Shown here piece by piece: positions 179-44,086 of a stretch of DNA of 64,000 nucleotides. Both the position numbers and the translations under genes were made by a program. The stretch is from Candidatus Gottesmanbacteria bacterium. Lineage in GTDB: Bacteria > Patescibacteriota > Microgenomatia > UBA10105 > UBA927. A model generated the notes under the pieces. That model worked only from the letters and a program-made list of their open reading frames with translations. It had not been told where the DNA came from and searched no databases. Numbering within the stretch: position 1 is the stretch's first letter; each line of letters opens with the position of its first letter. The stretch is from positions 549,486 through 613,485 of the forward strand of contig OY969569.1 of assembly GCA_963701185.1 (NCBI GenBank), written 5' to 3'.

Positions 179-250
179 CGCCCCGCCAGAGAGTCGAACT
201 CTGAACTTAGATTTAGCATATCTGTGCTATATCCATTTAACTAGCGGGGC
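179..250 (-). tRNA. tRNA on the minus strand. My fold gives anticodon GCU (Ser) but only a 4-nt variable region, which is class-I-like, so identity is uncertain.
   Basis: A 7-bp acceptor stem GCCCCGC/GCGGGGC, a GG-containing D-loop, a T-arm CAGAG-TTCGACT-CTCTG, and an anticodon loop AUGCUAA, all read by eye on the reverse complement. Confidence 0.55.
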
Positions 251-18065: not shown

Positions 18066-18181
18066 TATATATCACTAGTCTATAAAATATCTAACTTTAT
18101 CGCCTAATAGAGCCTTCCGTGTATTAGGGTTTGAGTAAAAATGGAGAAATGTATGGCTTTAATAAATGGCGATTTTTACTT

Positions 18182-20343: not shown

Positions 20344-20391
20344 GTATTATATATCGACTTTCCGATATAAAAATGGCCAGTTTTTCTAATT

Positions 20392-22762: not shown

Positions 22763-22781
22763 AGATCCAGTATACCATTGG

Positions 22782-28212: not shown

Positions 28213-29100
28213 CTAAAGACGGAGGCTTTTGAGATATTCGCGGAAATCACCATTCAGATCTTTGTGCTGAAGCGCAAACTCAACGACGGTTTTGAGATAT
28301 TCCAATTTATTTCCCGTATCGTAGTATTTGGCATGCTCGACCTCGCAGGCATACACCGGACGGGATTTCATGAGGATTTTGATCGCGTCGGTGAGCCAGA
28401 CTTCTCCGCTTTTTCCGGGGCCTAACTTTTCCAGAATCGGGAAAATGTCCGGCGTTAAGACATAGCAACCATGAGCGGCTAAATTTCCCGGCGCTTCTTC
28501 ACGGCTCGGCTTTTCGATAAGCCGCTTGATCTGGCCGACGTTTTTTTCAACTTCCGTTATCTCGACAATACCGTACCGGGAGACGTCATCTTTCGGCACG
28601 CGGATTGCGGAAATAACCGGATCGCCGTATTTTTCAAATACCTCGATGCATTGTTTTGCCCGCGGCGGGTGGGCGTAAATAAACTCGTCGCCCCATATGG
28701 CCACAAACGGTTCATCACCGATCACCGATCTGGCGCAGAGTACGGGCGTTCCGTTACCGTACGGACCTTTCTGCCGGATGTAGATAAAGTTGGCAAGCTC
28801 GGCCGTTTTTTTGACCGATTCCAAAAGTTCCTCTTTTCCCTGATCTTTAAGCATTTGAATAAGTTCATTGGGATAATCAAAATGGTCTTCAATGGCGCGT
28901 TTGTGCCAGCCGGTGACAATAACGATATCCGTAATGCCGGAGGCAACCAGTTCTTCCACGACGTATTGAATGACGGGTTTATCCACGATCGGAAGCATTT
29001 CCTTGGGCATGGCCTTGGTCTGGGGAAGAAACCGCGTCCCGAAACCCGCCGCCGGAATCACTGCTTTTCGGATCGTCTGTTTATTCATGCGTACTCTCAA
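28213..29100 (-). CDS. galU: UTP--glucose-1-phosphate uridylyltransferase.
   Basis: KAVIPAAGFGTRFLPQTKAMPKEMLPIVDKP is the canonical GalU N-terminus (the true start is probably MNKQ at 29088). Confidence 0.85.
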   Translation of the reverse strand: MRVRMNKQTIRKAVIPAAGFGTRFLPQTKAMPKEMLPIVDKPVIQYVVEELVASGITDIVIVTGWHKRAIEDHFDYPNELIQMLKDQGKEELLESVKKTAELANFIYIRQKGPYGNGTPVLCARSVIGDEPFVAIWGDEFIYAHPPRAKQCIEVFEKYGDPVISAIRVPKDDVSRYGIVEITEVEKNVGQIKRLIEKPSREEAPGNLAAHGCYVLTPDIFPILEKLGPGKSGEVWLTDAIKILMKSRPVYACEVEHAKYYDTGNKLEYLKTVVEFALQHKDLNGDFREYLKSLRL

Positions 29101-29142
29101 TTGTATCGCTCCTGCAAGATGCTTGTCAATTTGCTATGATGA

Positions 29143-30858: not shown

Positions 30859-30920
30859 TGCAGACGGATACCGCGTCTATCTTTACTTTTTTTGTCCGCT
30901 TTGCTATACTGACTTCCGTA

Positions 30921-30944
30921 CCCCTGGGAGGGGGTTTTTCATAG
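30921..30944 (+). terminator. Rho-independent terminator, CCCCTGGGAGGGG plus TTTTT.
   Basis: 5-bp GC stem with a GGG loop followed by a T5 run, 60 nt after the 30858 stop. Confidence 0.5.
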
Positions 30945-30957
30945 ATCCGCCGAAGCC

Positions 30958-31209
30958 TTGGCGAAGGCGGAGTTGGTAGGATATAATGGAACTATGGATA
31001 CAACGGTAAAACCAAATATTCCCAATGTGGCACCGGGAAAGTTTCTGCGCGAGGTGATTTCGGAACTCAAAAAAGTCACCTGGCCGACGCGGGAAGAAAC
31101 AGTGAAGCTGACGGTTGTTGTCATCGTCATATCCGTCCTCGTCGGCGCTTTTATCGGCGGACTGGACTCATTATTTGTCAAAATAACAACAATACTATTT
31201 AAACGATAA
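30958..31209 (+). CDS. secE: Preprotein translocase subunit SecE.
   Basis: KFLREVISELKKVTWPTREETVKLTVVVIVISVLVGAFIG is the SecE signature with one TM helix. An alternative start is MDTT at 30994, just after a TATAAT. Confidence 0.75.
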   Translation: MAKAELVGYNGTMDTTVKPNIPNVAPGKFLREVISELKKVTWPTREETVKLTVVVIVISVLVGAFIGGLDSLFVKITTILFKR

Positions 31210-31213
31210 ACCT

Positions 31214-31750
31214 ATGGATACACCATCACATGCAAAATGGTACGTAGTTCACACCTACTCCGGCCATGAAAACAAAGTCGCCGCAAACCTGAAACAGCGC
31301 ATCGACACAATGAAGCTGGCGGACAAAATATTTGAAATCATCGTCCCAACACGCAATATCGTACATGTCCGCCACGGAAAAAAGGAAGAACAAAAGGAAA
31401 AAATTTTCCCGGGCTATATTCTCGTCAAAATGGTTCTGGATGACACGTCGTGGCTGGCGGTCCGCACTACACAGGGCGTCACCGCATTTGTCGGCGCCGG
31501 CAACAAACCTACCCCGATTTCCGATAAAGAAGTCGATACGATTTTGAAATTTATGCAGATGGAAGCGCCCAAATACAAGGCATCGTTTTCGGTGGGCGAA
31601 GCCGTCAAAATCGTGGACGGGCCGTTTGCGGATTTCTTAGGCACCATTGACACCATTGATGAGGAAAAAGGGAAAATCAAAGTCCTGGTCTCTATTTTTG
31701 GAAGAGAGACGCCCGTTGAACTGGACTTCCTGCAGGTTGCCAAACTCTAA
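31214..31750 (+). CDS. nusG: Transcription termination/antitermination factor NusG.
   Basis: WYVVHTYSGHENKV N-terminal NGN domain and a C-terminal KOW (GEAVKIVDGPFADFLGTI). Classic secE-nusG-rplK order. Confidence 0.9.
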   Translation: MDTPSHAKWYVVHTYSGHENKVAANLKQRIDTMKLADKIFEIIVPTRNIVHVRHGKKEEQKEKIFPGYILVKMVLDDTSWLAVRTTQGVTAFVGAGNKPTPISDKEVDTILKFMQMEAPKYKASFSVGEAVKIVDGPFADFLGTIDTIDEEKGKIKVLVSIFGRETPVELDFLQVAKL

Positions 31751-31827
31751 AAAATTTGCTATACTTCCCCATACTACCCTGACGCTCACGAGCAGTTGGG
31801 TGGGAGAAATCTCAAAGGGGTTTCGCT

Positions 31828-32256
31828 ATGGCAGTCAAAAAAGTCAAAACCATCATTAAGCTTAATCTTCCCGCCGGCAGTGCCACTGCGGCTCCCCCAG
31901 TCGGACCAGCGCTTGGACAACATGGACTTCCGATCATGGAGTTTGTGAAGGCCTACAACGAACGCACCGCCAAGCTCAAAGGTGAAACAATTCCCGCCGT
32001 TATCACCGTCTACGAAGACCGCACATTCAGCTTTATTACTAAGCTTCCCCCCGTTGCCGCCATGATTAAAAAGCTTCTGGCGTTGGAAAAGGCAGGCGGC
32101 AAAGCCGGCCATGAATCGGCAGGCAAACTCACGCAAGAACAGGTCAAAAAAATCGCAACCGATAAATTGCCGGATTTGAATACCGACAACGTCGAAGCAG
32201 CCATGAAAGTAGTCAAAGGAACCGCCCGCAGTATGGGCATTACGGTGGAAGGATAA
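31828..32256 (+). CDS. rplK: 50S ribosomal protein L11.
   Basis: The motifs KLNLPAGSATAAPPVGPALGQHGLPIMEFVKAYN and PAVITVYEDRTFSF are canonical L11. Confidence 0.95.
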   Translation: MAVKKVKTIIKLNLPAGSATAAPPVGPALGQHGLPIMEFVKAYNERTAKLKGETIPAVITVYEDRTFSFITKLPPVAAMIKKLLALEKAGGKAGHESAGKLTQEQVKKIATDKLPDLNTDNVEAAMKVVKGTARSMGITVEG

Positions 32257-32260
32257 GACT

Positions 32261-33088
32261 ATGGGTAAAATCAGAGCCGTCGCCATGGGCGACGAACGAG
32301 AGGAAAAAGAGCAAAAACGCCGGGCCGAAGCAAGGCGTCAGACCAAAGATTCCAAAAAACAGAAGGTGGAAGGCATCGAGGTGGCCGAAGGCACCGATAT
32401 CAAGCCGGAATTTAAAAAATTGATTGAAGAGGTTGAATCCGGAGAAAAGCCTGCGGTAAAAAAAGCCAAGAAAGAAAAGAAAGCACGCGTCCGCTCAAAA
32501 CGGTATGTTGAGGCTGCTTCCCTGGTTGATAAAACCAAAGTCTATCCCCTGGGCGATGCAGTGTCGCTCGTGAAGAAAACAAGCCTCACGAAATTTGACG
32601 GATCCGTGGAACTGCATATTAATCTCAATCCTGCATCTTTGGGTGAAAAGAAAGATATGCGCGGCTCCGTATCCTTACCGCACGGAACAGGAAAACAGGT
32701 ACGCGTCCTTATCGCGGACGAATCTATTATTGCCGACGTTGCCGAGGGAAAAATCAATTTTGATATTCTGGTAGCCTCTCCCGCCATGATGCCGCGTCTT
32801 GCCAAAGTCGCCCGGATTTTGGGTCCCAAGGGGCTTATGCCCAACCCGAAAACCGGCACCGTGACGGAAGACACCGCCAAGCGCGCCAAAGAGTTATCGA
32901 CCGGCAAAGTCAACTTCAAAACCGAACCCGACCAGCCGCTCATCCATCTCTTGGTGGGCAAAGTATCGTTTGATGACAAAAAGCTTGAGGACAACATCAG
33001 CGCAATCTTAAACGCAGTCGGACGGGGCAAAATTGCCAAGGCTACTCTTGCGTCCACCATGGGTCCGGGAGTTAAAATTCAGATATAA
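32261..33088 (+). CDS. rplA: 50S ribosomal protein L1 with an N-terminal Lys/Glu-rich extension of about 75 aa.
   Basis: The core KRYVEAASLVDKTKVYPLGDAVSLVKK...KFDGSVELHINLN...GTGKQVRV aligns to canonical L1 from about residue 76. The preceding segment is KE-rich low complexity. Confidence 0.9.
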   Translation: MGKIRAVAMGDEREEKEQKRRAEARRQTKDSKKQKVEGIEVAEGTDIKPEFKKLIEEVESGEKPAVKKAKKEKKARVRSKRYVEAASLVDKTKVYPLGDAVSLVKKTSLTKFDGSVELHINLNPASLGEKKDMRGSVSLPHGTGKQVRVLIADESIIADVAEGKINFDILVASPAMMPRLAKVARILGPKGLMPNPKTGTVTEDTAKRAKELSTGKVNFKTEPDQPLIHLLVGKVSFDDKKLEDNISAILNAVGRGKIAKATLASTMGPGVKIQI

Positions 33089-33324
33089 ATTCTATGGCTG
33101 GCTCCCCCTCAGAATTTCGTATCGGTCACCCTTATGGACTCGTGCGGGATACCAGATATTTTCGTGTGACCCTCATGTCTGTTGACGCATCCGTACAACC
33201 ACCTCGGGCACATGTTATTATCCAAGAGCACTCGGTCGAATCATTTATTGAGGGGACAGGTACCCGAAAACGCCATAAATATCGTGGCGATCCCGTTCCC
33301 TGTGCCAATGTTCCGCTTACCGAC

Positions 33325-33455
33325 CTTATTGATATCGGGTAAATAATCTGCTATACTCTTTTTATCCTAAAGACCGTAGGTATCCCGATCAGATCGGGAG
33401 GAAATCCTACCGAGGGAATATTTTCCTCGCTTTTGGCGGGGATTTTTTTATATAT
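33325..33455 (+). promoter_or_regulatory. Promoter TTGATA-N17-TATACT plus a structured rplJ leader (candidate L10 leader autoregulatory element).
   Basis: Consensus-like promoter seen directly. Downstream hairpins: CCCGATC-AG-GATCGGG nested in GTAGG...CCTAC, and CGAGG-GAATATTTTC-CCTCG. The position matches the known L10(L12)4-binding leader upstream of rplJ. Confidence 0.45.
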
Positions 33456-33974
33456 ATGGCTACACAACGAAAAATAGATGCAGTGACGGAACTGACCGGA
33501 AAAATCGCTAAAGCGAAATCCATTGTCTTGGCCGATTACCGCGGCCTCAAGCATAAACAGCTTGAAGAACTGCGCCGGGCCCTCAAAAAAACCGACGCAG
33601 ACTTTAGCGTGATCAAGAATCGTTTATTTACCAAAGCTTTGGGAAATAAGGCAAAATCCATCGAAAACCAACTCACACAATCGACAGCGGCACTGTTTGC
33701 ATATGCTGATGAAGTAGCTCCCCTTACCGTCCTGCTTAAATTTTTCAAAACAGCAGGAGCAGGGATTACAAAAGGCGGACTGTTGGGCGACAATGTGTTG
33801 ACCGAAGCAGATATTACAAAATTAGCGGCACTCCCCGCCCGTTCCGTTCTGTTGGCCCGCTTAGTCGGCCAGCTCAATGCACCGATCCAGGGCTTGCACT
33901 ACGCACTTTCGTGGAATATAAACAGGCTCGTTTGGGCATTGAAGGAGGTGACTGTACATGGCAAAACTAACTAA
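33456..33974 (+). CDS. rplJ: 50S ribosomal protein L10.
   Basis: [35 protein letters not shown] is a canonical L10 N-terminus. Confidence 0.9.
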
Positions 33975-34344
33975 AGACGAAATACTGAAAGCAGTTGAAG
34001 AAATGACGGTATTGGAGCTTTCCGACTTAGTGAAGGCTCTTGAGGAAAAATTCGGAGTTTCTGCCGCACCAGTCGCAGTAGCTGCAGGAGCAGCGCCGGC
34101 GGCAGATGCAGGCGAACCGAAGGAAGAACAAACGGTTTTCAACGTGGTTCTTAAGGAAGCAGGAGCAAACCGCATCGGCGCAATTAAAGCGGTGCGCGAA
34201 CTCGTACCGACCTTGGGACTTCAGGAAGCCAAAACACTCGTGGAATCGGCTCCGAAAGAAGTTTTAACCGGCGTCAACAAAAGTACCGCTGAAGAGGCAA
34301 AGAAAAAGCTCGAGGCAGCAGGTGCAAAAGTTGAATTGAAGTAA
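33958..34344 (+). CDS. rplL: 50S ribosomal protein L7/L12.
   Basis: [34 protein letters not shown], an Ala/Pro hinge, then [12 protein letters not shown]-like and C-terminal [10 protein letters not shown]. Confidence 0.95.
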
Positions 34345-34356
34345 TAAAACAAAAAC

Positions 34357-34392
34357 GTATAGAAACGTACCCCGCTTCTCGTGAGAGGCGGG
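34357..34392 (+). terminator. Rho-independent terminator after rplL: CCCCGC-TTCTCGTGAGAG-GCGGGG plus TTTTTT.
   Basis: 6-bp GC stem and a T6 run seen directly. It may act bidirectionally for the convergent 34398 gene. Confidence 0.6.
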
Positions 34393-34397
34393 GTTTT

Positions 34398-36650
34398 TTA
34401 TGACCGCTTTTTCTGATTTGGTGTGTATTGAAAAAGTTTGATCTCATCAAAACGGCTCTTTGACCACGCTGCCGGTTCTACTAATTCTATCAGTGAAGGC
34501 TCCGTGGGATCTTTTGCGTCTGTTTGTATAAGACGATACCCTGCATACCTCCCCTGCATGTCATCCAGGAGTTTCTCCATAAATGCGATAAGACCCGACC
34601 CCGAAAGGACCGTTCCGTCCATGTCGATACTCTGAAAGGGATAGATGCATATCTCCGTAAGGTGTTCTTCCTCCCCGCGGGATAGGGACAAGACAAATTT
34701 TTCCCGAACTATCAGGTTTCCGATGGATCCAGCGCGTACACCGTTCCTCTTTCCGGCGATAAACTCCTCCCGTTCTTTCTTTGATTGAATGGTAATAAAT
34801 TTCCGCACAGAATCAATAGCCGCTGTTTTATGCGTTCCCGCAACGATAGACACCTGCCACCCCGACCCCGCAAGGAGCGTACGATAATGGTCAAGCAATG
34901 CCTCACGAAATTCTTCAACCTTCGCGAGCCGCAATGGTATATTCCTGCGCTCTTCTTCCGAAAAATTATCTTCATGGATAACGAAATTGTGGCTGAAATC
35001 ATCGTTCACTGGTTCGTGCAAGCTTTTAAACCATTTTCGCTCTTCAGATTTCAAGGGCCGCTTATCATGCAAGAGCAGAAGCGCTTTGCCCCCGACCGGT
35101 TTCTCCGTCTGACGCCGAAGTATTGTATGGGTGACATCTTTCAGGTGTATTTCGTCCAATTCGGGCGGATATTTCAAAAACTTCGCCAAGCCGTTTTCAA
35201 ACAGGCTATCGTCTACAACCATATGCTGTTCGATGACCGGAATTGCAGTAAAAAATTCCGCGATGATCATAAGCATCTCACCGCGCATCCGTTTGGCGGC
35301 ATCACTCTGGACATTGGACGGAATGTTTTTGTACGGGTGCAAACCCAACACATGCAGCATCTGCACAAACGGCCGCTCGATGGCGCTGGCAACTTCGTTT
35401 ATCGGGTAATGCTGTTGAAACGAGTTTTTCGTTTTCTGCATTTCACCGGCAATATAACGCGGAATCCGTTCGGGAAATTCCAGAGCACGCTTTACAATAT
35501 CCCGCGGCTTACGGAGCCTAACGGCAAGTTCATCGACAAACCGCGCGTCCAGATCTTTTAGGAGCTGGGTGTGTTGATCCAGCCGCAGGGCAATCACCTG
35601 AGGCCAAATTGCCCGGAGTGCCGCTACGGTGTCGACACCTCTTGCTGAGATAAATGGGGTAATATCTACCCCCATTCGCACATATAGCTCCTGCACCGTC
35701 CCGCGAAGCGCATAATTTAATATGTTGCGGGCTTTTCGGACTTGGGCCGTTGGCATAGAAACCAGTGCGTCCGGCAACTGCTCCGGCGTAAACTCCCGCA
35801 TATATAAACTCGCAGTAAGTAAATCCGTTGACCTGGGCGGCTTTTGACCATTTTCTCTGTCCCGCGTGCGTTCATCGGTAAACCCCATCATCATCTGCGC
35901 CGCAAGAAATCCGCGAAGCAACTCATTATGTCCGCATTGACCCAACCCTGAAACCTCCGGCTTTTTATGCCACCTGCGGACGAGGTTAATCTGTTTTTTC
36001 ATCTCATCAAGAAACGATTGCTCATAACTCCTGATTTCCTGCATCACGCGGGTAAACTCCAAGCCTTGTATCTGCCGCGCGTCGGCGGAAAGTATCACAT
36101 CACCGGCCTGCGCCTGCGTCAAATGGCCGACGATATGAAGATTTTCCTCGTATCGGGTGGTTACATATCCGTTGTTGAATAATTGTTCTAGTTCGTTGGG
36201 TGTGACACTCACAAGCTGATTCGCGCCATCTTCACGCGGTTGGTGGAGAGAAATGGCACCGGACCGCACCGGCATGACGGTAAGAAATGCTTCGCGTCCT
36301 GCTCGTTTGCCGTTGACCCGATATGGTATGGGGCTCCCGTGCCCGATGGAATCTTGGAGATTTCGCAGGGACTCGCGTGTAAGAAGTGATTTTTCAAACA
36401 CTTTCCTCATGCCGGCATGCAAAAGATCTTCTCCCGGATTAATCTCTCCTCCTATTGCAGTGACCAATTTCGTATCGACTTTTTTGACCAAAATCACTTC
36501 GATACAAGAAATCTCTTGGAAAGATTTTCCAGCAGCAAGCAATCCTTCTAGTTGCTCAGCCCGTATCGGCGCCACGGCAAACACCCGCACGCTGCGGTGG
36601 ACGTTTTCATGAGAATCAAGAGATGACAGTCGTTCTGTTTTCGACGGCAT
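34398..36650 (-). CDS. Large hypothetical protein of 750 aa with a degenerate N-terminal Nudix-like box.
   Basis: Long clean ORF. GGEINPGEDLLHAGMRKVFEK fits G-x5-E-x7-R-[EK]-U-x-E, which is incomplete relative to REUxEExGU. I recognise no other motif. Confidence 0.55.
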   Translation of the reverse strand: MPSKTERLSSLDSHENVHRSVRVFAVAPIRAEQLEGLLAAGKSFQEISCIEVILVKKVDTKLVTAIGGEINPGEDLLHAGMRKVFEKSLLTRESLRNLQDSIGHGSPIPYRVNGKRAGREAFLTVMPVRSGAISLHQPREDGANQLVSVTPNELEQLFNNGYVTTRYEENLHIVGHLTQAQAGDVILSADARQIQGLEFTRVMQEIRSYEQSFLDEMKKQINLVRRWHKKPEVSGLGQCGHNELLRGFLAAQMMMGFTDERTRDRENGQKPPRSTDLLTASLYMREFTPEQLPDALVSMPTAQVRKARNILNYALRGTVQELYVRMGVDITPFISARGVDTVAALRAIWPQVIALRLDQHTQLLKDLDARFVDELAVRLRKPRDIVKRALEFPERIPRYIAGEMQKTKNSFQQHYPINEVASAIERPFVQMLHVLGLHPYKNIPSNVQSDAAKRMRGEMLMIIAEFFTAIPVIEQHMVVDDSLFENGLAKFLKYPPELDEIHLKDVTHTILRRQTEKPVGGKALLLLHDKRPLKSEERKWFKSLHEPVNDDFSHNFVIHEDNFSEEERRNIPLRLAKVEEFREALLDHYRTLLAGSGWQVSIVAGTHKTAAIDSVRKFITIQSKKEREEFIAGKRNGVRAGSIGNLIVREKFVLSLSRGEEEHLTEICIYPFQSIDMDGTVLSGSGLIAFMEKLLDDMQGRYAGYRLIQTDAKDPTEPSLIELVEPAAWSKSRFDEIKLFQYTPNQKKRS

Positions 36651-37148
36651 AGCACGAATGCATAGTATACCCTAATCATGCCTCATTATGCAAAAAACGA
36701 CACGTCTACGGGCAATACAGAGGCTGGCGCTCCTTTCCGTATTCTGCCAACATGGTTCAATTACCTATTTACTACAGGTTGATCACCTATGATATAGCCG
36801 TGTGTATGGGGCATTTTGCATTTTTTGGTGTTTTCCGCATATTTCCGTATGACAAAGCATTGTGGATTGTTTGTGCGATATTGTGGATATTATTGAACAA
36901 TATTAGTGTTCAATTACGTAGCTTTGATAATGTTACAAAAAATGGGTTTTTTGAAAAATATTGTGTTGCCACTTTTTGTCACCCCCAAATTTATTTTTCA
37001 TAGTTTTTTGGACACTCCTCTGAATTTTTTGCCGCCGCTCACTGTTTTTTTCTTTTTAATACTATTTTACTTTTCCGTTTCAATATATATCATACTAGCT
37101 GCATGCATTTGATGTCTCTTGACAATGTTTGACTGACGATGTACTGTT

Positions 37149-37394
37149 GTGATGAATATTGATCTTAAATTCTTGCCCGAAAAAGGAGCTAGTATGGCAC
37201 TTGGTGATGAATGGCCGGATTTGTTGACCGTGCGGGAAGTGGCAAAAATTTTACGCGTATCTCCTCTGACAATCAAGCGGTGGGGCAAGCGCGGGAAGTT
37301 GCCCGCCATCCGCATAAACTCGCGCGGAGACCGCCGGTATAAGAAAGAGGCGGTACTCTGGCTCCTGGGACTTCAGCAAAAAGGGGCGGTGTAA
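37149..37394 (+). CDS. Small excisionase/MerR-like HTH DNA-binding protein.
   Basis: LLTVREVAKILRVSPLTIKRWGKRGKLPAIRINSRGDRRYKKEAV matches the Xis/HTH_17 pattern (the start is possibly MALGD at 37194). Confidence 0.6.
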   Translation: MMNIDLKFLPEKGASMALGDEWPDLLTVREVAKILRVSPLTIKRWGKRGKLPAIRINSRGDRRYKKEAVLWLLGLQQKGAV

Positions 37395-37398
37395 AAGG

Positions 37399-38256
37399 TT
37401 ATATCGCAGTTTCTTTAATTTCAGTCGCGGCCTGCGCGGGATCTACGACATTGACGTTTAGGCCGGTCCCCAGCTCAAACCCCGCGCGGTGGATAAAACG
37501 CGGAATAATACGGATAAACCAATTGATACCGTGGTAAATGTAATAGTTGTAGACAAACGCATTGTCAGAACGGTCTTTCGGTTTAATCGTCGAAGCCAGA
37601 TATATTTTTTCCAACCGTATAAGAACGCGCTGCAGGACTCCGGCCAAATCAGGAAGCTCCGCCTCCGGCGTATCGCCGAATTTACTTCCTTCACTTTTGG
37701 GCGCGATCCACGTCTCATAGGGCCACTGCGAAAAATCCGGACAATAGGTGATAAAAAAGGTATTTTCATCGACAATGTTGGCAATCGGCTCCCGGTACAG
37801 TGAATCCAGGTTAATCTGCTTGGGAACCACAACCAATTGGGAATGCGGATGGATAAGGCTTGCTCCCGCATGAAACCCGTGATTGCAGAAGATAATGACC
37901 TGCCCGTCGCCCTCATGAGCGCGGTAACGGTCGCGGTACACGGTCAGAATCCGGGTTACCTGCTCAACCGGAAGGTGTTCCAGATCATCCGTATGATTAG
38001 GCGTATGAATAATAACCTCGTGAATGTCGGTAATGGCGTATTTATTGGGGACCACGCGTACCTGCCAGCCCGGCTTATCCTTCTCCCCACTCCCTATCCG
38101 GTACACCTCCTGCGGCGTGAGACTTTCGTTTCCCTCGCAAAATGCACAAACTGGTTCACCTGTTTTCGGAGCGGCTGCTTCGTCCGGGCGTTTGCTGCGG
38201 GCGGCCGCGATAATCACCCACCGCTGTGTCTTGACATCGGGAACATATTTTGCCAC
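37399..38256 (-). CDS. GalT-family (HIT superfamily) nucleotidyltransferase: galactose-1-phosphate uridylyltransferase-like / NDP-sugar phosphorylase.
   Basis: CAFCEGNE Cys cluster, VRVVPNKYA, and the HPHSQ (HxHxQ) active-site motif. GTG start. Confidence 0.7.
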   Translation of the reverse strand: MAKYVPDVKTQRWVIIAAARSKRPDEAAAPKTGEPVCAFCEGNESLTPQEVYRIGSGEKDKPGWQVRVVPNKYAITDIHEVIIHTPNHTDDLEHLPVEQVTRILTVYRDRYRAHEGDGQVIIFCNHGFHAGASLIHPHSQLVVVPKQINLDSLYREPIANIVDENTFFITYCPDFSQWPYETWIAPKSEGSKFGDTPEAELPDLAGVLQRVLIRLEKIYLASTIKPKDRSDNAFVYNYYIYHGINWFIRIIPRFIHRAGFELGTGLNVNVVDPAQAATEIKETAI

Positions 38257-38261
38257 ACATC

Positions 38262-38303
38262 TAGTATTGCGTATTGCGTATCGGGTATCAAGTATCAGGT
38301 GTC
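38262..38303. repeat. Six tandem imperfect heptamers (TTGCGTA TTGCGTA TCGGGTA TCAAGTA TCAGGTG TCAAGAG) in the 5' region of the galT-like gene.
   Basis: Seen directly. A 7-nt period with the core TYRNGTA. Confidence 0.6.
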
Positions 38304-38314
38304 AAGAGAAGAGG

Positions 38315-38743
38315 TTATGTTTTCTCCGGCCAGATAACCGTACCGGGAAAACGCTCCTCCACCAAATGGAGTGCCTTTTCCCAACCGGGAGAATCAAGAA
38401 CCACCGTCATGGGCTTATGGGCCGGCAATCGATAAACAAACGTGGATTTAGATTCTACGTAATCTTTTTGATAGGATCCGAGCATCCTGATAAAAACCTT
38501 CATAGCGAACTCTGAATCTTTATGCGCTTCGAATATACAACCCGTTGAAATTGAGGATTCTTCGTAATACTTCAGGTCAAACGGATCCTCATCCGTTAAC
38601 ATAACATGCGGGGTTTTCTCCCCAGCATTAAGCCTATCTTTCCGGATTACGCGAAGATGGTGCTGTTGTAAAAATGTAACTCCGTGATTAAACTCGTCTT
38701 GTTGCTCTTTATTTTGGAATATCAGCTCTTGTTTCGCCACCAT
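38315..38743 (-). CDS. Hypothetical protein.
   Basis: 142 to 149 aa ORF (ATG at 38743, or a GTG at 38764 overlapping the upstream stop). I recognise no family. Confidence 0.45.
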   Translation of the reverse strand: MVAKQELIFQNKEQQDEFNHGVTFLQQHHLRVIRKDRLNAGEKTPHVMLTDEDPFDLKYYEESSISTGCIFEAHKDSEFAMKVFIRMLGSYQKDYVESKSTFVYRLPAHKPMTVVLDSPGWEKALHLVEERFPGTVIWPEKT

Positions 38744-38763
38744 AGTTCTCCATATATACCACA

Positions 38764-39716
38764 CTAAACAAATTTATTCAACAATTCCTTGGCTTCCGAC
38801 TGTTTTTCCGGCGTCACGAGAACCTCGACTAATCCCTGTCCGGGCTGACCGTAATAGACGACGGCCCCGGGCGGTCCGTAGGCAATGGCGGGAAGCGCCA
38901 GAAGATCTTCTTCCCCGGTCACCGTCAGCACCAATTTCTCTTCCGGATGCAGGCTCCATTTTTTAATGACGTCTATCGCCTCCTGGGCGATAAATCCGGG
39001 GCCGCTTGGCACATGAATGCGGAAAATACCTAAACCCGCAAACCGTCCGTCCAACTCCGGATAGGGTTTGCGCTCCACCTGAAAATCAATAATGGAAAGA
39101 GACGGGATGACACCGGCAGTCAGAAATGTTTTGGTCGTAATATCGCCCACGGTGACAATAACGCCGCTCCGGTGGGCTTCGATCGAGCTTCCTATGGCGT
39201 CGCCGATAAGAATCCTGCCTACAGGCTTCCCAAGCTCCGGCCGCATGGTATCCGGTAGAATCAACCGGCCTGTTTTATCAATCTCTCCGTCGCGAACTCT
39301 GGTTGATGAGATCGGTACTGCATCCGCAGCCGGCACAAGCGGAACAAGGAGTAGTCCCAACGGTGCCAGACCTTTTTCCTTACGGATGCGGTTTATTTCC
39401 CCGCCGCGCGATGTATTGTCCGGGGTGACCACAAGCACCTCGAGGTCGTGAGGCTCGCCGCCGGCTCGTACGGGTCGTCGATGGAAAGTATCATCGTCTT
39501 ATCACTATATCCGTTGCTACTCAGCCATTGTTCCAGATCCGCCTTACGATCTGAAAACGCCGAAATCGCATGATCTTTCTTGAATCTGGCAACAAAGGTA
39601 TCTGACGTGAGGCCTATGGTCACATTCTCCCCCGCCTCATACGCCGCAGTCAGAACAGCCTCATGGCCCGTATGGAGTCTGTCAAACGTGCCGGCAACAA
39701 GTACACGGTGGTACAT
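38764..39716 (-). CDS. coaD: Phosphopantetheine adenylyltransferase (archaeal-type cytidylyltransferase) fused to a GTP-dependent dephospho-CoA kinase (DUF359), interrupted by a frameshift near 39440-39460.
   Basis: Upstream frame: VLVAGTFDRLHTGHEAVL (nucleotidyltransferase HxGH). Downstream frame: DLEVLVVTPDNT...ISSTRVRDGEI (PPAT C-terminal motif) then GRILIGDAIG...IVTVGDITT...GVIPSLSIIDFQVERKP (the DUF359 pattern). The frames switch within the GC-rich run GCCGGCGGCGAGCC. Confidence 0.6.
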
Positions 39717-39757
39717 GAGGTAATAGTACGATGAAACAAAGCGGGAGTAAAGAACAC

Positions 39758-40216
39758 CTACGGTCCTATTTCGTTTATGTACTCGCGATATCGCGATTCA
39801 TATCGATGATAAAAGTCACGTTCTTCAGCGGATAGTCCTTTTTTTCCGGATAATCTTTCCATTTTTCCCATAATGTCCGCCTCAACTGTGTGTATTTGAT
39901 CAAGAACCGTTCCGATTAATCCCCCGTGGGGAGGGAAAACACCAATTTGATCCACACGTGTACTGACCCCTTTTTCAACATCAAAAATTGTGGTTCTGCG
40001 TATCTCACGAATAAAGCCACCTTCCATATGAATACCGCCTGACGTTCTCAAATGTCTTAATGCGTCGTCAAAATATATCGCCAGTTCCGGATGGCGTTCT
40101 TCTATGAATGCTTTTGTGTCTTCGTAGTTTTGTCCGTAATGACCCTCTTGGACTTGGTGTTCTCTCGGCATAGGATTTGTATCCCATAATATATCATTAT
40201 GTACCTGCGGAGTCAA
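39758..40216 (-). CDS. Hypothetical protein.
   Basis: 152-aa ORF, operonic with its neighbours. No recognised motif. Confidence 0.45.
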   Translation of the reverse strand: MTPQVHNDILWDTNPMPREHQVQEGHYGQNYEDTKAFIEERHPELAIYFDDALRHLRTSGGIHMEGGFIREIRRTTIFDVEKGVSTRVDQIGVFPPHGGLIGTVLDQIHTVEADIMGKMERLSGKKGLSAEERDFYHRYESRYREYINEIGP

Positions 40217-40220
40217 TAAT

Positions 40221-41060
40221 TTAGGGATACATCAAAGAAGCACGGAACAAAACTGAATGAAACTGTGATGCTTTGGCCAAGGTAAGGTAAGGTTCAAGAC
40301 GGGAATTTTTGAATGAATTTAAATAATCTGCAAACTGCTGTATTCGATCAAGAATTTGTCTGGCTTCTTTAAAATATCCGCCTTTAATATCCATTTCCCC
40401 TTTCTCAAGCATATCAAGAAGTATTTTGTTGGATTCTGTCATTTCACCTTTAAGAAGACGATGAATATCCGTTTCTGTAATACGTTCGTCAGGCCTACGA
40501 AGAGCTATCGGAGCATATCTCTTTGCTGCTCTTGCGATTTCCGCTTCAGTTATTTTGTAGGCTGCTGCTATATCACCTGAATTTTCCTTTTTTGCCATAA
40601 ACTCAAACATGCCCCGCCACTGAATAAAGCCGGGTGCGGGAGAGCCTGTGAAGGGCATGGAGAGAAAATACCCTGTCCTTTTTTCCGGGATGAGATTACG
40701 ATCGTCGTAATGAACAGGGATAATGCAAATATTTCCGTCCTGAAAAAAAACGGGTTTTATACGGTTGTCAGCGGCGGAAACCTCGGTAACAAGGGAACCT
40801 CCGCGTTCTGCACGAAGACGGGAATGTATCCCGGTGAGGATAGGATTATTCGGATCGGATTGTACTTTTATTGTCGTCTCCGCCAGTTTTTGAAAAACAT
40901 TCCTGAAACGTAGAGTGGTGTTTTTTGCCGCGTGATGGATATCTGAAATCGTGTGAGGGGCAATAATTTCCCAGTTTCTGCCTTTGAATGCCAAAAGCTC
41001 TTTACTTCGGGGTAATAGATCTTCAACGATGCCAACAGTATTATTTGGTTTTTCCGTCAT
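40221..41060 (-). CDS. Hypothetical protein.
   Basis: 279-aa ORF at the head of the minus-strand cluster 37399-41060. No recognised motif. Confidence 0.5.
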   Translation of the reverse strand: MTEKPNNTVGIVEDLLPRSKELLAFKGRNWEIIAPHTISDIHHAAKNTTLRFRNVFQKLAETTIKVQSDPNNPILTGIHSRLRAERGGSLVTEVSAADNRIKPVFFQDGNICIIPVHYDDRNLIPEKRTGYFLSMPFTGSPAPGFIQWRGMFEFMAKKENSGDIAAAYKITEAEIARAAKRYAPIALRRPDERITETDIHRLLKGEMTESNKILLDMLEKGEMDIKGGYFKEARQILDRIQQFADYLNSFKNSRLEPYLTLAKASQFHSVLFRASLMYP

Positions 41061-41088
41061 AGTTTTTCTGATTTTACCTTATAGTATG

Positions 41089-41412
41089 TACTGCATGCAA
41101 ATGGATATCCGGCTGTATACAGAGTATACTATGCGCGGTATGACACCTAATGAAAAACAGCCAAACAGCGTTCGGCACTACTTTGAAACAGAGGTATATC
41201 CTGAACATGCTGCTGCCATAAAGGCAGCAGAAAAGAAAAAAGTCCCTCATTTTATTCCTCGCCGCCGCAGCAGGCATGAAGATGAACCCATGCAAACGAG
41301 GTGGGATTGCGGATGTGTCACGACCCTCGCCCCTGATGGGACAATTCTTCGCTCGCAATGCGGAACTGACGATTGCCTCTATGACCAGGGCATGGCCAAC
41401 AGAGTAAAATGA
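41089..41412 (+). CDS. Possible small Cys-containing protein, hypothetical.
   Basis: The only substantial + frame in the 41061-41460 gap. Starting at an internal Met avoids overlap with the divergent gene. Weak call. Confidence 0.3.
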   Translation, partial: YCMQMDIRLYTEYTMRGMTPNEKQPNSVRHYFETEVYPEHAAAIKAAEKKKVPHFIPRRRSRHEDEPMQTRWDCGCVTTLAPDGTILRSQCGTDDCLYDQGMANRVK

Positions 41413-41460
41413 ACAAAGCTCCCCCTCGTTTTTCCCTCTGGTATCTTTTATACTGAGTAC

Positions 41461-42123
41461 ATGCATCCCTTTGCCCAATACCTCGATTTTGCCAACCACC
41501 GAGCCAGTGCGACGCCCGCGGATATCGAGAACCTATGCGCATCAGTCGTGGAACATGGTTTCCACGCGGCTTTTATGAATGCGTGCTATATTAGTCCCGC
41601 CCACACCAAATACGCGGCGGGACTAAAAATCGGAACGGTGGTAAGTTTTCCGCTGGGCCAGGATACGGTTGCCGCAAAGGTGGCCGCGACCAACGAAGCG
41701 GTGCAACTGGGCGCGGACGAACTGGATATCGTCCCCAATATCGGCACGTTCCTCTCCGGCGACACCGACGGGTTTGTGGCGGAAATGAAAGCTATTGTTG
41801 ACGGCGCACGGATGGTAGGTCAGCCCGTGATCGTAAAGTTTATTCTCGACCCCGGGTACATAACTACCCCGGATCAAATGAAACAGGCCGCACTGGCAAT
41901 CCAGCAGTCCGGCGCGGATTTTGTCAAAATAGGAAGCGGCATGGGGCCCAGAGGCCCGTCCGTTGAGGATGTAAAAATCGTGCGGGACGCAGTCGGTCCG
42001 GATATGAAAATTAAAGTCGCCGGAGGCATTGATACCTACGAAGAAGCCAAGGCATTCATCGACGCGGGAGTGGTCCGTATCGGCACGTCGCACGCGATAG
42101 ACATTGTATGCGCAAAAAGATAA
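41461..42123 (+). CDS. deoC: Deoxyribose-phosphate aldolase family.
   Basis: TIM-barrel class I aldolase pattern. FVKIGSG matches the Schiff-base Lys region (FVKTSTGF) of DeoC, with C-terminal VRIGTS. Confidence 0.8.
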   Translation: MHPFAQYLDFANHRASATPADIENLCASVVEHGFHAAFMNACYISPAHTKYAAGLKIGTVVSFPLGQDTVAAKVAATNEAVQLGADELDIVPNIGTFLSGDTDGFVAEMKAIVDGARMVGQPVIVKFILDPGYITTPDQMKQAALAIQQSGADFVKIGSGMGPRGPSVEDVKIVRDAVGPDMKIKVAGGIDTYEEAKAFIDAGVVRIGTSHAIDIVCAKR

Positions 42124-43463
42124 CGTCCGTTGAGATTGCCGTTTTTGTCGCCATAGGCCTCATTGCAATCCTTTTAAACCGCATGGGGGTCCGCTTTGAT
42201 TTACGTCTGCGGGCCACCGGAATTCCGGCAAATATTGTCGTTTCGACGAAAACCGGACTGACCCCCTTCCCTACCGCGTTTTACCATGCATTTGCCCAGG
42301 GAGGCGAAGAAAAAACGGACATGCTTTCCCCGGTTGCCTCTGCCGTCCGCGCACTCAAGCCCGCATACATCCGCATTGATCATATTTTTGACAGCTACCG
42401 CGTGGTGCACAAAGAAAACGGCACCCTCACGTTTGATTTTACCCGGCTGGATCGGACTGTCGATACGATCCGTGGCACCGGCGCAACCCCGGTCCTTTCC
42501 CTTTCCTACATGCCCGCGGCAATTGCAAAAGACGGAATCATCACCAATCCACCGGACAATTGGAATGATTGGGTGTCGATTGTGCGGGAGACAATAGAAC
42601 ATTACAGCGGCAAAACCAATAAAAATCTCTCCGGCGTGTATTATGAAGTCTGGAATGAGCCTGACCTGCCGCAGTTCGGGAGCTGGAAAACCTACGGCAA
42701 CAAAAATTATCTCACCCTGTACGGCTATGCCGCCGACGGCGCCAATTCTGCCCGCAATGTCAATACGTTTTATTTCGGCGGACCTGCAACAACAGGACTG
42801 TACAAAGATTGGGTCACGGCCATCCGTAAAACCGGCTCCCGTATGGATTTCGTGAGCTGGCATATATATAACAGCGACCCGAAACGTTTCAGCCGGGACC
42901 GGCAAACCGCAGGCGAATGGGGCATTCCGACACTCATCACCGAATTCGGATTCACCGGGAATAAAGATGAACGCTATGGCACAACGTATGGGGCCGCCTA
43001 CATGGCTGCGGTCATCCGGCAGATCGTTTCAGACCCGCCGGCCGGCTTGTTTACCTTTGAACTGAAAGACGGACCCGCGGATACGACTGACGGATGGGGG
43101 CTTTTGCCGCATGAAAACGCGGGAGGAGATCCAAAACCGCGGTATCAGCTCTTTCCCCTGCTGGATGAATTATCCGGCGACATGCTGCAGGTTTCCGGCG
43201 AGGGCACGTGGGTGACGGCGATCGCGTCTACCCGCAGCGGCACCGTCAGGACGCTTCTGGTTAATTTCCATCCCGACGGCAACCACTCCGAAAACGTCCC
43301 CGTCACATTTACCGGACTTATCCCAGGGCAATACGCGTTCCGGCAGTACCAACTTTTGGGTCACGATGCAACAATACGGGTAACAATTCCTGCGGAAAAC
43401 TGGCAGACAAATGTCTTCATGCCTCCCAATGCCGTCACCCTCCTGACACTGACGCGTTTGTGA
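42108..43463 (+). CDS. Membrane-anchored clan GH-A glycoside hydrolase (GH39/GH5-like).
   Basis: N-terminal TM helix. YYEVWNEPDL (NEP acid/base Glu) and ITEFG (nucleophile Glu) are spaced as in GH-A enzymes. Confidence 0.65.
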   Translation: MRKKITSVEIAVFVAIGLIAILLNRMGVRFDLRLRATGIPANIVVSTKTGLTPFPTAFYHAFAQGGEEKTDMLSPVASAVRALKPAYIRIDHIFDSYRVVHKENGTLTFDFTRLDRTVDTIRGTGATPVLSLSYMPAAIAKDGIITNPPDNWNDWVSIVRETIEHYSGKTNKNLSGVYYEVWNEPDLPQFGSWKTYGNKNYLTLYGYAADGANSARNVNTFYFGGPATTGLYKDWVTAIRKTGSRMDFVSWHIYNSDPKRFSRDRQTAGEWGIPTLITEFGFTGNKDERYGTTYGAAYMAAVIRQIVSDPPAGLFTFELKDGPADTTDGWGLLPHENAGGDPKPRYQLFPLLDELSGDMLQVSGEGTWVTAIASTRSGTVRTLLVNFHPDGNHSENVPVTFTGLIPGQYAFRQYQLLGHDATIRVTIPAENWQTNVFMPPNAVTLLTLTRL

Positions 43464-44086
43464 GGCGTTCGATGGCGCCTGCGACATTGGCAGGGTCTTT
43501 GAAGATAAAACTTGTGGAAACCAGCCGCGTAGCACCCGCTTCCGTCACCACACGTACGGTCTTATCATTTATTCCCCCTGAAACTTCTATCGGGAGGTGG
43601 GGTAAATACCTGCGGATCGATTTAATTTTTTCCAGACACTCCGGTAAAAACGCCGCGCCGGAAAAGCCTGCTTCCACCATCATCACCAAAACAAAGTCCA
43701 CTTCCTCCAAAAACGGCTCAACGGTCTCAAATTCCGTGGGTCCGTCGATGGCGATACCCACCTCTACTTCTTCATGTTTCACCGCATCCAAAAAAAGCCG
43801 CGGATCATGTGCTTCAACATGGGCAATAAGCCGCCTGAAACCGGCATCCGCGGCCGGTTTTATGTATTTTTCGGGGGATGTGACCATGAAGTGGGCTTCC
43901 AATTGGGGAGATAAGGGTGATAAGGGGAAATCGGGAAAAATCTAAAAATGTTGTATTGGGTACCATCGTGTTATCCGCAAACTCAATCTGCACCCAGTCA
44001 ACAAGACCTGTCACCAGGCGAATTCTCTCCTCGATCATTTCCCACTCTTTTTCTAAAATTCCGGGGATGATATCAATTGTGCTCAC
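43435..44086 (-). CDS. rpe: Ribulose-phosphate 3-epimerase, split by a frameshift near 43905-43912.
   Basis: The N-terminal ORF (44086-43814) has IIPGILE...WVQIEFADNTMVPNTTFLDF. The C-terminal ORF (43902-43435) begins LEAHFMVTSPEKYI (Rpe LDVHLMV block) and has GADFV-like and GGIN blocks. The frames switch at the CCCCAATTGG homopolymer. Confidence 0.65.

What the first reader, a model, noticed from the sequence alone, without database searches (positions are those of the whole stretch)
38764..39716. Archaeal-type last two CoA steps in one (frameshifted) gene: PPAT cytidylyltransferase plus GTP-dependent dephospho-CoA kinase (DUF359)
Bacteria normally use CoaD plus CoaE. This gene instead has an archaeal-type PPAT (GTFDxLHxGH ... 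ISSTRVRDGEI) followed by a DUF359-type GTP-dependent DPCK, and it is broken by a frameshift in a GC run (GCCGGCGGCGAGCC). If intact, it is a horizontally acquired, fused archaeal CoA module. If truly frameshifted, CoA may be scavenged.
Basis: partly seen in the sequence, partly recalled or inferred. Interest (0 to 1): 0.55.

Follow-up and report, generated by a model that had tools for sequence, protein, structure and literature searches.

The report
Archaeal-type fused CoA synthase, probably mis-assembled
This gene of a tiny-genome (CPR) bacterium joins the last two enzymes of coenzyme A synthesis in their archaeal versions; the fusion is normal for the lineage and already known from archaea, and the break in the gene is most likely a one-base assembly error.

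Summary
On the minus strand, 38764..39716 encodes an archaeal/eukaryotic-type phosphopantetheine adenylyltransferase (PPAT) followed by a DUF359/arCOG04076 GTP-dependent dephospho-CoA kinase (DPCK). In this window the gene is split into ORFs of 107 and 224 aa.

The break is a single missing base at 39446/39447 (coding strand CTCACG-ACCTCGAG).

A contig from an independent assembly is 99.94% identical over 15.1 kb. It carries an intact 317-aa gene, and its only gap against the window is this base. More than 100 relatives (Candidatus Gottesmanbacteria and other Microgenomates) have the same fusion as one ORF.

Three other conserved genes in the 64 kb window are also frameshifted: rpe and two membrane glycosyltransferases. 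At least two of these shifts lie next to homopolymer runs of 4-5 bases. The frameshift is therefore most likely an assembly indel (about 0.7). A recent strain-specific mutation is the alternative (about 0.2-0.25).

The PPAT-DPCK fusion was already described in uncultured archaea and led to the discovery of the archaeal DPCK. Its presence across a CPR lineage is in databases, but no paper in the searchable library discusses it. Verdict: gene identification correct, ordinary for the lineage, modest interest.

The parts
38764..39716 (-). Whole PPAT-DPCK gene as it stands in the window. It would be 317 codons plus a stop if one base were restored at 39446/39447.
   Evidence: The intact orthologue P0122 (317 aa) is identical to the window outside the junction.
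39259..39716 (-). PPAT domain (residues 1-153), interrupted by the frameshift after residue 90. It carries TFDRLHTGH (aa 10-18) and ISSTRVR (aa 136-142).
   Evidence: PF01467. NF001985 at 147.8 bits against cutoff 104. 3do8 at E 1.4e-17 over aa 4-153. Fold TM 0.84 to 3do8 on a 78%-identical homologue.
38767..39258 (-). GTP-dependent dephospho-CoA kinase domain (DUF359/arCOG04076, residues 154-317), with Asp192, Asp211 and Asp271.
   Evidence: PF04019 at E 5e-28. 8jvc at E 7.5e-21 over aa 157-312. Fold TM 0.80-0.84 to 8jvc/8jvg. The Asp residues align with TK1697 D48/D67/D125 and are invariant in 66 homologues.
39445..39449 (-). Frameshift site. The coding strand reads ACG-AC, with one base of the Asn/Asp-91 codon missing (AA->A or GG->G).
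   Evidence: This is the only gap in a 15,140-bp alignment with L004. Relatives read ACC GAC / ACC GAT / ACG AAC at this point.
39452..39465 (-). It is adjacent to the frameshift but is not its site.
   Evidence: The run is identical in L004.
39393..39716 (-). The 107-aa ORF as annotated: 90 genuine PPAT residues plus a 17-aa out-of-frame tail.
   Evidence: P0121.
38764..39438 (-). The 224-aa ORF as annotated, with a GTG start. It holds the C-terminal third of PPAT plus the whole DPCK domain.
   Evidence: P0033.
37399..38256 (-). GalT/Ap4A-phosphorylase-like HIT-family gene, a conserved downstream neighbour of the fusion in relatives. A functional link has not been shown.
   Evidence: The same neighbour is present in L001, L002, L004, L005 and L006.

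Best explanation
The locus encodes a bifunctional 'CoA synthase' of archaeal type.

How it works:
- The N-terminal nucleotidyltransferase domain adenylylates 4'-phosphopantetheine with ATP to give dephospho-CoA.
- The C-terminal DUF359 domain phosphorylates the 3'-OH of dephospho-CoA, probably with GTP, to give CoA.

This single 317-aa polypeptide is the normal state of the gene in Candidatus Gottesmanbacteria and related Microgenomates (CPR bacteria). The two-ORF state in this window comes from one missing base at 39446/39447. That is most likely a consensus or assembly indel error rather than a biological lesion, so the organism most probably makes the intact enzyme.

What is shown: domain identities, motif and catalytic-residue conservation, fold, the exact position of the indel, intactness in a near-identical strain and in all relatives examined, and further frameshifts in the same window.

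What is inferred: enzymatic activities, GTP preference, that the indel is an artefact, that the gene came from archaea, and that these small-genome bacteria feed the enzyme with salvaged 4'-phosphopantetheine.
For: Identity of the two domains:
- Pfam PF01467 plus PF04019.
- NCBIfam NF001985 above its cutoff.
- PDB sequence hits 3do8 (archaeal PPAT) and 8jvc (GTP-dependent DPCK).
- An AlphaFold model of a 78%-identical homologue has pLDDT 92. Its best Foldseek hits are 8jvc (TM 0.80) and 3do8 (TM 0.84).
- The catalytic Asp residues of TK1697, which were tested by mutagenesis (PMC6650551), are conserved.

The fusion is the norm:
- More than 100 full-length clusters of about 317 aa at 45-78% identity, several named Candidatus Gottesmanbacteria.
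- 553 clusters at 50% identity with E<=1e-30; nearly all of the 150 listed are 300-370 aa and match over the full length.

The frameshift is probably an artefact:
- The intact P0122 sits in the same 90% cluster as the window's fragments.
- Its contig L004 is 99.94% identical to window 28764..43902, with exactly one gap, and that gap is this site.
- The 8 substitutions between the two are mostly synonymous (5 of 8). So L004 is a genuine sister strain under purifying selection.
- Three further conserved genes in the window are frameshifted. For the two glycosyltransferases, homologues span the junction in single alignments. rpe is colinear with the intact rpe of L001 and L002 across two frames. 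Indel sites: rpe at TTTCCCC; glycosyltransferase CD between two A5 runs; glycosyltransferase AB at GGGCC.
- Four inactivating indels per 64 kb, set against about 8 substitutions per 15 kb, is implausible for genes under selection.
- The source contig is a single 995-kb piece. From general knowledge, that is typical of long-read assemblies, whose residual errors are indels.
Against: - No reads were available, so the indel cannot be proven to be an error.
- The site is only a dinucleotide (AA or GG), not a long homopolymer.
- Two genuine synonymous differences lie 20 and 23 nt away. The region is therefore truly polymorphic between strains, and the indel could be real variation.
- Enzymatic activity and GTP preference have been measured only for the distant T. 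kodakarensis homologue (about 30% identity).
- The absence of CoaD/CoaE in this genome was not tested.
Confidence: 0.7

Rival explanations
1. The frameshift is a real, very recent mutation in this strain. PPAT is truncated after residue 90 and loses the ISSTRVR motif. The DPCK part is made only if translation restarts at GTG 39438. The cell would then depend on imported dephospho-CoA or CoA.
For: - The sequence as given has the deletion.
- The site is not a long homopolymer.
- Two real synonymous polymorphisms lie within 23 nt of it.
- From general knowledge, CPR bacteria are thought to depend on other cells and to have reduced cofactor synthesis.
Against: - The gene is intact in a 99.94%-identical strain and in all relatives examined.
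- Three other conserved genes in the same 64 kb, including rpe, are also frameshifted. That is far more than the substitution divergence would predict.
- No Shine-Dalgarno sequence at a usable spacing precedes the GTG.
Confidence: 0.22
2. The two frames are joined in vivo by programmed -1 ribosomal frameshifting or by transcriptional slippage, as a regulatory device.
For: The shift needed is -1, and both frames are open across the junction.
Against: - There is no X XXY YYZ slippery heptamer in the N-terminal frame upstream of the site.
- There is no homopolymer that would allow transcriptional slippage.
- None of the relatives examined, including the sister strain, needs a frameshift; the gene is a plain ORF in each.
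Confidence: 0.02
3. The C-terminal DUF359 domain is not a dephospho-CoA kinase here. It acts instead on another substrate of the thiamine-pyrophosphokinase-like superfamily.
For: - Identity to the characterised TK1697 is only about 30%.
- The Thermococcales equivalog model NF041125 scores 88 bits, below its cutoff of 300.
Against: - The domain is fused to PPAT, the enzyme of the preceding step. That same fusion is what led to the discovery of the activity (PMC6650551).
- All three catalytic Asp are conserved and invariant across 66 homologues.
- PF04019 scores well above its gathering threshold.
Confidence: 0.05

Closest known systems
PPAT-arCOG04076 fusion proteins of uncultured archaea (e.g. 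group II/III Euryarchaeota, AIF21550.1), described by Shimosaka et al. 2019, mBio (PMC6650551)
   Same: The domain order is the same (PPAT at the N-terminus, DUF359 DPCK at the C-terminus), and the size is similar. A Poseidoniales genome (L009) encodes a colinear homologue covering query residues 5-317 at 30% identity.
   Different: - The host is a CPR bacterium, not an archaeon.
- Sequence identity to the archaeal fusions found here is only 30-37%.
- In rough NJ trees the Microgenomates proteins form their own clade. One archaeal fusion (L007) groups with standalone archaeal enzymes, which suggests that the fusion arose more than once (no support values).
TK1697, the standalone GTP-dependent dephospho-CoA kinase of Thermococcus kodakarensis (PDB 8jvc/8jvf/8jvg)
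   Same: The same Pfam family (PF04019), the same fold (TM 0.80-0.84) and the same three catalytic Asp.
   Different: TK1697 is a standalone 177-aa protein, whereas here the domain is the C-terminal part of a fusion. Identity is about 30%. Nucleotide preference has not been tested for the CPR protein.
Archaeal/eukaryotic-type PPAT (COG1019; NF001985; Archaeoglobus fulgidus 3do8; TK2128)
   Same: The HxGH and ISxTR motifs, the fold, and an NCBIfam score above cutoff.
   Different: Here the domain is fused to DPCK, and the host is bacterial.
Eukaryotic CoA synthase (COASY), a bifunctional PPAT/DPCK
   Same: The same two consecutive activities in one polypeptide, with a PPAT domain of the same (non-CoaD) lineage.
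   Different: The COASY kinase domain is CoaE-type (a P-loop kinase, general knowledge). The kinase here is the unrelated DUF359 fold. This is a convergent fusion.
Bacterial CoaD + CoaE
   Same: The same two reactions. CoaD shares the nucleotidyltransferase fold at a distance (Foldseek E about 1e-4, 14-19% identity).
   Different: The Pfam scan of the protein lists no CoaE family (PF01121). PPAT is closer to archaeal than to bacterial enzymes. The gene is fused rather than present as two separate genes.

Membership tests
Archaeal/eukaryotic-type PPAT (NF001985 / COG1019, PF01467 superfamily) | (H/T)xGH nucleotide-binding motif near the N-terminus | tested here: met
   GTFDRLHTGH at aa 9-18. 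G9, T10, F11, H15, G17 and H18 are invariant in 66 homologues.
Archaeal/eukaryotic-type PPAT (NF001985 / COG1019, PF01467 superfamily) | C-terminal ISxTxxR motif | tested here: met
   ISSTRVR at aa 136-142. It lies downstream of the frameshift, in the second ORF.
Archaeal/eukaryotic-type PPAT (NF001985 / COG1019, PF01467 superfamily) | Score above the curated family cutoff | tested here: met
   NF001985 scores 147.8 bits against a cutoff of 104 on P0122, which is identical to the window outside the junction.
Archaeal/eukaryotic-type PPAT (NF001985 / COG1019, PF01467 superfamily) | Uninterrupted reading frame in this window | tested here: not met
   A 1-nt deletion at 39446/39447 splits the domain after residue 90.
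Archaeal/eukaryotic-type PPAT (NF001985 / COG1019, PF01467 superfamily) | Adenylyl transfer to 4'-phosphopantetheine | not testable with these tools
   This needs an enzyme assay.
GTP-dependent dephospho-CoA kinase (arCOG04076 / DUF359 / PF04019) | Pfam PF04019 above the gathering score | tested here: met
   97.6-98.7 bits against a cutoff of 25, covering profile positions 1-125 of 126.
GTP-dependent dephospho-CoA kinase (arCOG04076 / DUF359 / PF04019) | Three conserved catalytic Asp (TK1697 D48, D67, D125) | tested here: met
   VTVGD192ITT, SIID211FQV and GEED271LLA align with TK1697 VTVGDVVT, ALYDLKT and GEEDLAA. D192, D211 and D271 are invariant in alignment A2.
GTP-dependent dephospho-CoA kinase (arCOG04076 / DUF359 / PF04019) | Fold of 8jvc | tested here: met
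   Foldseek E 2e-13, target-normalised TM 0.80-0.84, using the model of the 78%-identical P0001.
GTP-dependent dephospho-CoA kinase (arCOG04076 / DUF359 / PF04019) | NCBIfam equivalog NF041125 (Thermococcales) cutoff | tested here: not met
   88 bits against a cutoff of 300. The model is specific to one order, so this excludes only Thermococcales orthology, not family membership.
GTP-dependent dephospho-CoA kinase (arCOG04076 / DUF359 / PF04019) | Preference for GTP as phosphate donor | not testable with these tools
   Known only for TK1697 (PMC6650551).
PPAT-DPCK(DUF359) fusion architecture | Both domains in one polypeptide, with PPAT N-terminal | tested here: met
   Met in the lineage: P0122 and more than 100 homologues are single ORFs of about 317 aa. 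In the window itself the architecture is interrupted by the indel.
Bacterial CoaE-type DPCK (PF01121) | P-loop kinase CoaE domain | tested here: not met
   The Pfam and NCBIfam scans of the protein list no CoaE model.

The most novel reading that the evidence does not exclude
A whole CPR lineage (Gottesmanbacteria and neighbouring Microgenomates) may have no CoaD/CoaE at all. It would make CoA solely through an archaea-derived, GTP-dependent bifunctional PPAT-DPCK, acquired as an already fused gene and fed by salvaged 4'-phosphopantetheine. That would be a domain-crossing replacement of the universal last two steps of CoA synthesis. No paper in the searchable library describes it.
Probability: 0.4. 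Interest if true: 0.45.

Novelty: new member of a known kind. Interest (0 to 1): 0.27.

Why it matters
Two practical lessons come out of this.

1. The apparent pseudogene should not be used to infer CoA auxotrophy. This window's assembly carries several frameshift indels. Metabolic reconstructions from it, and probably from the whole 995-kb genome, will undercount intact genes unless frameshifts are corrected.

2. Public annotation mostly names these CPR proteins only 'pantetheine-phosphate adenylyltransferase'. That hides the kinase half, so automated pathway calls will report the last step of CoA synthesis as missing in these bacteria.

Biologically, the locus adds a bacterial (CPR) clade to the known archaeal PPAT-DPCK fusions. 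It fits the pattern of CPR bacteria keeping only the final assembly steps of cofactors: the same window also holds late NAD-synthesis genes.

Tried and rejected
- Looking up the window's own proteins to fetch more independent contigs failed. The window's genome is not in that index, so the sister-strain comparison is limited to 15.1 kb.
- A metagenome-contig scan with the rebuilt glycosyltransferase found nothing.
- Two suspected extra frameshifts were examined and rejected:
  - ORFs 22154..22918 and 22782..23849 are two separate genes. There is a clean stop, and a new Met starts a protein with an N-terminal membrane anchor.
  - The nucleoside hydrolase at 18182..18940 continues upstream in the same frame to its DPGIDD motif, but without an ATG, GTG or TTG. 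That is a start-codon question, not a frameshift.
- Programmed frameshifting was considered and rejected.
- Literature searches for DUF359, arCOG04076 or archaeal DPCK in CPR, Patescibacteria or Gottesmanbacteria found no paper that reports it. This covers only the open-access library.
- The cluster look-up gave no taxon names for distant fused representatives. Their domain of origin had to be guessed from flanking genes of named loci.
- The NJ trees have no support values and long branches. They are used only as a weak hint.

Full report
**1. What is in the sequence**

The feature lies on the minus strand. ORF 39393..39716 (107 aa) starts MYHRVLVAGTFDRLHTGHEAV... ORF 38764..39438 (224 aa) contains ...PISSTRVRDGEIDKTGRL... 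and runs to the stop at 38764.

A joined translation matches Pfam PF01467 (cytidylyltransferase-like, aa 7-144, E 4e-11). It also matches PF04019 (DUF359, aa 195-317, E 5e-28, 97.6 bits against a gathering score of 25). A 3-periodic Markov coding model trained on the window's other long ORFs shows the coding frame switching at about 39446.

**2. Where exactly the frame breaks**

More than 100 homologues of about 317 aa read ...DDPYEPAASLT-D-LEVLVVTPD... as one ORF. The window reads PAASLT in the first frame and LEVLVVTPD in the second, so the lesion is in the single codon between them.

The cluster that holds the window's two annotated fragments (P0121, P0033) also holds P0122. P0122 is a 317-aa protein identical to the window on both sides of the junction, with Asn at the junction codon.

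Its contig (L004, from an independent assembly of run ERR10755943) aligns to window 43902..28764 at 99.94% identity over 15,140 bp. There are 8 mismatches and exactly one gap: CTCACGAACCTCGAG in L004 against CTCACG-ACCTCGAG in the window. On the plus strand the site is GTCGT, 39445..39449. More distant relatives have ACC GAC or ACC GAT at this point. The window therefore lost one base of an AA or GG dinucleotide.

**3. Is the break biological?**

Four observations argue that it is an assembly or consensus error.

- (a) The sister strain has the gene intact.
- (b) Of the 8 substitutions between window and L004, 5 are synonymous and 6 are at third codon positions. L004 is thus a genuine close relative, and the genes are under purifying selection.
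- (c) The window contains at least three more frameshifted conserved genes:
  - Ribulose-phosphate 3-epimerase (44086->43435). The shift is at TTTCCCC, about 43927-43933. The N- and C-terminal parts lie in different frames and are colinear with the intact 209-211-aa rpe of L001 and L002.
  - A PMT_2/ArnT-like membrane glycosyltransferase 'AB' (53548->52024). The shift is at GTCGGGCCTGTGG, about 53000.
  - A second such glycosyltransferase 'CD' (55596->53520). The shift lies between two A5 runs, about 54490-54510.
  - For AB and CD, homologues P0273 and P0272 align in single HSPs across the junctions: AB residues 19-505 with the junction at 182, and CD residues 8-691 with the junction at 367.
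- (d) Four inactivating indels in 64 kb (about 60 genes), two of them in housekeeping enzymes, is out of proportion to about 8 mostly silent substitutions per 15 kb.

The window's contig is a single 995,214-bp piece. From general knowledge, that is typical of long-read metagenome assemblies, whose residual errors are mainly indels. The sequencing technology could not be verified here.

Against the artefact reading: the PPAT site is only a dinucleotide, and two real synonymous differences lie 20 and 23 nt away. No reads were available. My estimate is artefact about 0.7, real recent mutation about 0.2-0.25.

Programmed frameshifting is very unlikely. There is no slippery heptamer, and none of the relatives examined needs a frameshift.

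If the lesion were real, PPAT would lose everything after residue 90, including ISSTRVR. The DPCK domain would be made only by re-initiation at a GTG that has no usable Shine-Dalgarno sequence.

**4. What the gene is**

*N-terminal half.*
- NCBIfam NF001985 (pantetheine-phosphate adenylyltransferase, the archaeal type) scores 147.8 bits against a cutoff of 104.
- The best solved relative is Archaeoglobus fulgidus 3do8 (E 1.4e-17, aa 4-153).
- The HxGH and ISSTR motifs are invariant or nearly so in 66 homologues.

*C-terminal half.*
- The best solved relative is 8jvc, 'GTP-dependent dephospho-CoA kinase' (E 7.5e-21, aa 157-312).
- Mutation of TK1697 residues D48 and D67, and more weakly D125, impaired complementation in T. 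kodakarensis (PMC6650551). These align with D192, D211 and D271 here, which are invariant.

*Fold.* An AlphaFold2 model of P0001 (78% identical to the window protein) has mean pLDDT 92. Its best PDB matches by Foldseek are 8jvc/8jvg (target TM 0.80-0.84) and 3do8 (TM 0.78-0.84). Bacterial CoaD structures come far behind (E about 1e-4, 14-19% identity).

*Mechanism.* The inferred mechanism is PPAT (ATP + 4'-phosphopantetheine -> dephospho-CoA + PPi), followed by DPCK (dephospho-CoA + GTP -> CoA + GDP), on one polypeptide. The activities and the GTP preference are inferred from homologues and were not measured.

**5. Organism and distribution**

The window is bacterial. It has a class II (86-nt) tRNA-Tyr, an L,D-transpeptidase, and the bacterial secE-nusG-L11-L1-L10-L7/L12 gene order. 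The closest named homologues are Candidatus Gottesmanbacteria, in the Patescibacteria/Microgenomates group.

The fusion is very common:
- 553 clusters at 50% identity score E<=1e-30, and nearly all of the 150 listed are 300-370 aa and match over the full length.
- In a species-level genome collection, full-length colinear homologues occur in five named loci:
  - Two MAGs labelled 'uncultured Gammaproteobacteria' (L005, L006). Their DeoC / fusion / GalT-like synteny matches the Microgenomates loci, so they are probably mislabelled.
  - A bacterium with PBP1A, UppS and a sigma factor next to the gene (L008).
  - An uncultured archaeon (L007).
  - A Poseidoniales archaeon (L009).
- Standalone PPATs of Bathyarchaeia and Asgard archaea are 38-47% identical to the PPAT half.

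Rough NJ trees place the Microgenomates proteins in one clade for both domains. L007 groups with standalone archaeal enzymes, which hints at more than one fusion event (no support values).

**6. Comparison with what is known**

Shimosaka et al. 2019 (PMC6650551) reported that arCOG04076 genes are fused to PPAT in many uncultured archaea. They used this to identify TK1697 as the missing archaeal DPCK. Makarova et al. 2019 list arCOG04076/DUF359 as part of the pan-archaeal core (PMC6393860). The architecture and its function are therefore known.

What is less known is that a CPR bacterial lineage uses it. I found no paper in the searchable library that says so. The proteins are in public databases, named 'pantetheine-phosphate adenylyltransferase' by NCBI and JGI, and in one case 'GTP-dependent dephospho-CoA kinase' by IMG.

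Archaea-to-CPR transfer is the parsimonious direction, given the pan-archaeal distribution and the patchy bacterial one. It was not rigorously tested.

**7. Context**

No CoaE, CoaD, CoaBC or PanK family was detected among the roughly 45 window ORFs scanned or in the Pfam table for L004. This is only 6% of the genome and decides nothing.

The window does hold late NAD-assembly genes: NadE, a nucleoside hydrolase, a phosphoribosyltransferase and a 512-aa NadD-like protein, at 16191..21930. That is consistent with a cell that keeps the last steps of cofactor assembly and imports precursors.

**8. Verdict**

The frameshift is one missing base next to, not in, the GC run. It is probably an assembly error, one of at least four in this window, and it should not be read as loss of CoA synthesis.

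The fused archaeal-type PPAT-DPCK is the ordinary state of the gene in this CPR lineage and a known architecture in archaea. It is a new member of a known kind, of modest interest.

Noticed in passing
window 43435..44086 (-), shift about 43927-43933: Ribulose-phosphate 3-epimerase is frameshifted at a TTTCCCC run. The N-terminal part (VSTIDIIPG...FLDFSRF) and the C-terminal part (PLSPQLEAHF...) are in different frames, yet they are colinear with the intact 209-211-aa rpe of L001 and L002. The independent contig L004 ends exactly at 43902, just beside this site.
   Followed up: yes
window 52024..53548 (-), shift about 53000: A PMT_2/ArnT-like membrane glycosyltransferase is split by a +1 shift at GTCGGGCCTGTGG. 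Homologue P0273 aligns across the junction in one HSP.
   Followed up: yes
window 53520..55596 (-), shift about 54490-54510: A second PMT_2-family glycosyltransferase (about 690 aa when rebuilt) is split by a +1 shift between two A5 runs. Homologue P0272 aligns over residues 8-691 in one HSP.
   Followed up: yes
window 178..250 (-): A tRNA with anticodon GCU (called Ser, Rfam 50 bits) is only 73 nt long and has a short variable loop. Bacterial tRNA-Ser normally has a long variable arm, so the identity of this tRNA is unclear.
   Followed up: no
window 18182..about 19170 (-): The reading frame of the inosine-uridine nucleoside hydrolase stays open upstream of the first ATG/GTG/TTG, and that stretch encodes the catalytic N-terminal DPGIDD motif. 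The gene therefore seems to need a non-canonical start codon (ATT or ATA), or the start has been lost.
   Followed up: partly
window 16191..21930 (-): A cluster of late NAD-assembly or salvage genes: glutamine-dependent NAD synthase (NadE), a nucleoside hydrolase, a QRPTase/NAPRTase-like phosphoribosyltransferase, and a 512-aa protein with an N-terminal NadD-like nucleotidyltransferase domain and an unassigned C-terminal 350 aa.
   Followed up: partly
window 37399..38256 (-); L001, L002, L004, L005, L006: A GalT/Ap4A-phosphorylase-like HIT-family gene lies immediately downstream of the PPAT-DPCK gene in relatives spanning 42-78% identity. A DeoC-like aldolase is conserved upstream. In the window and L004 an extra 142-149-aa ORF of unknown function (38315..38764) sits between the fusion and the GalT-like gene.
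   Followed up: partly
window, e.g. upstream of 21930 (-), 45735 (+), 62938 (+): Several genes have a TATAAT-like box only about 6-15 nt upstream of the ATG and no Shine-Dalgarno sequence. This suggests leaderless or very short-leader mRNAs.
   Followed up: no
window 55663..60881 (-) and 23879..26606 (+): A 1545-aa protein with collagen triple-helix repeats sits next to an H-type lectin-domain protein. Elsewhere, a dockerin-domain protein sits next to a cohesin/PKD-domain protein. These are probably cell-surface or attachment proteins.
   Followed up: no
L005 and L006 (CAZPNL010000067.1, CAZNKB010000009.1): These MAGs are titled 'uncultured Gammaproteobacteria bacterium', but they carry the Microgenomates-type fusion gene with the same DeoC / fusion / GalT-like synteny as the Gottesmanbacteria loci. 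The taxonomic label is probably wrong.
   Followed up: partly
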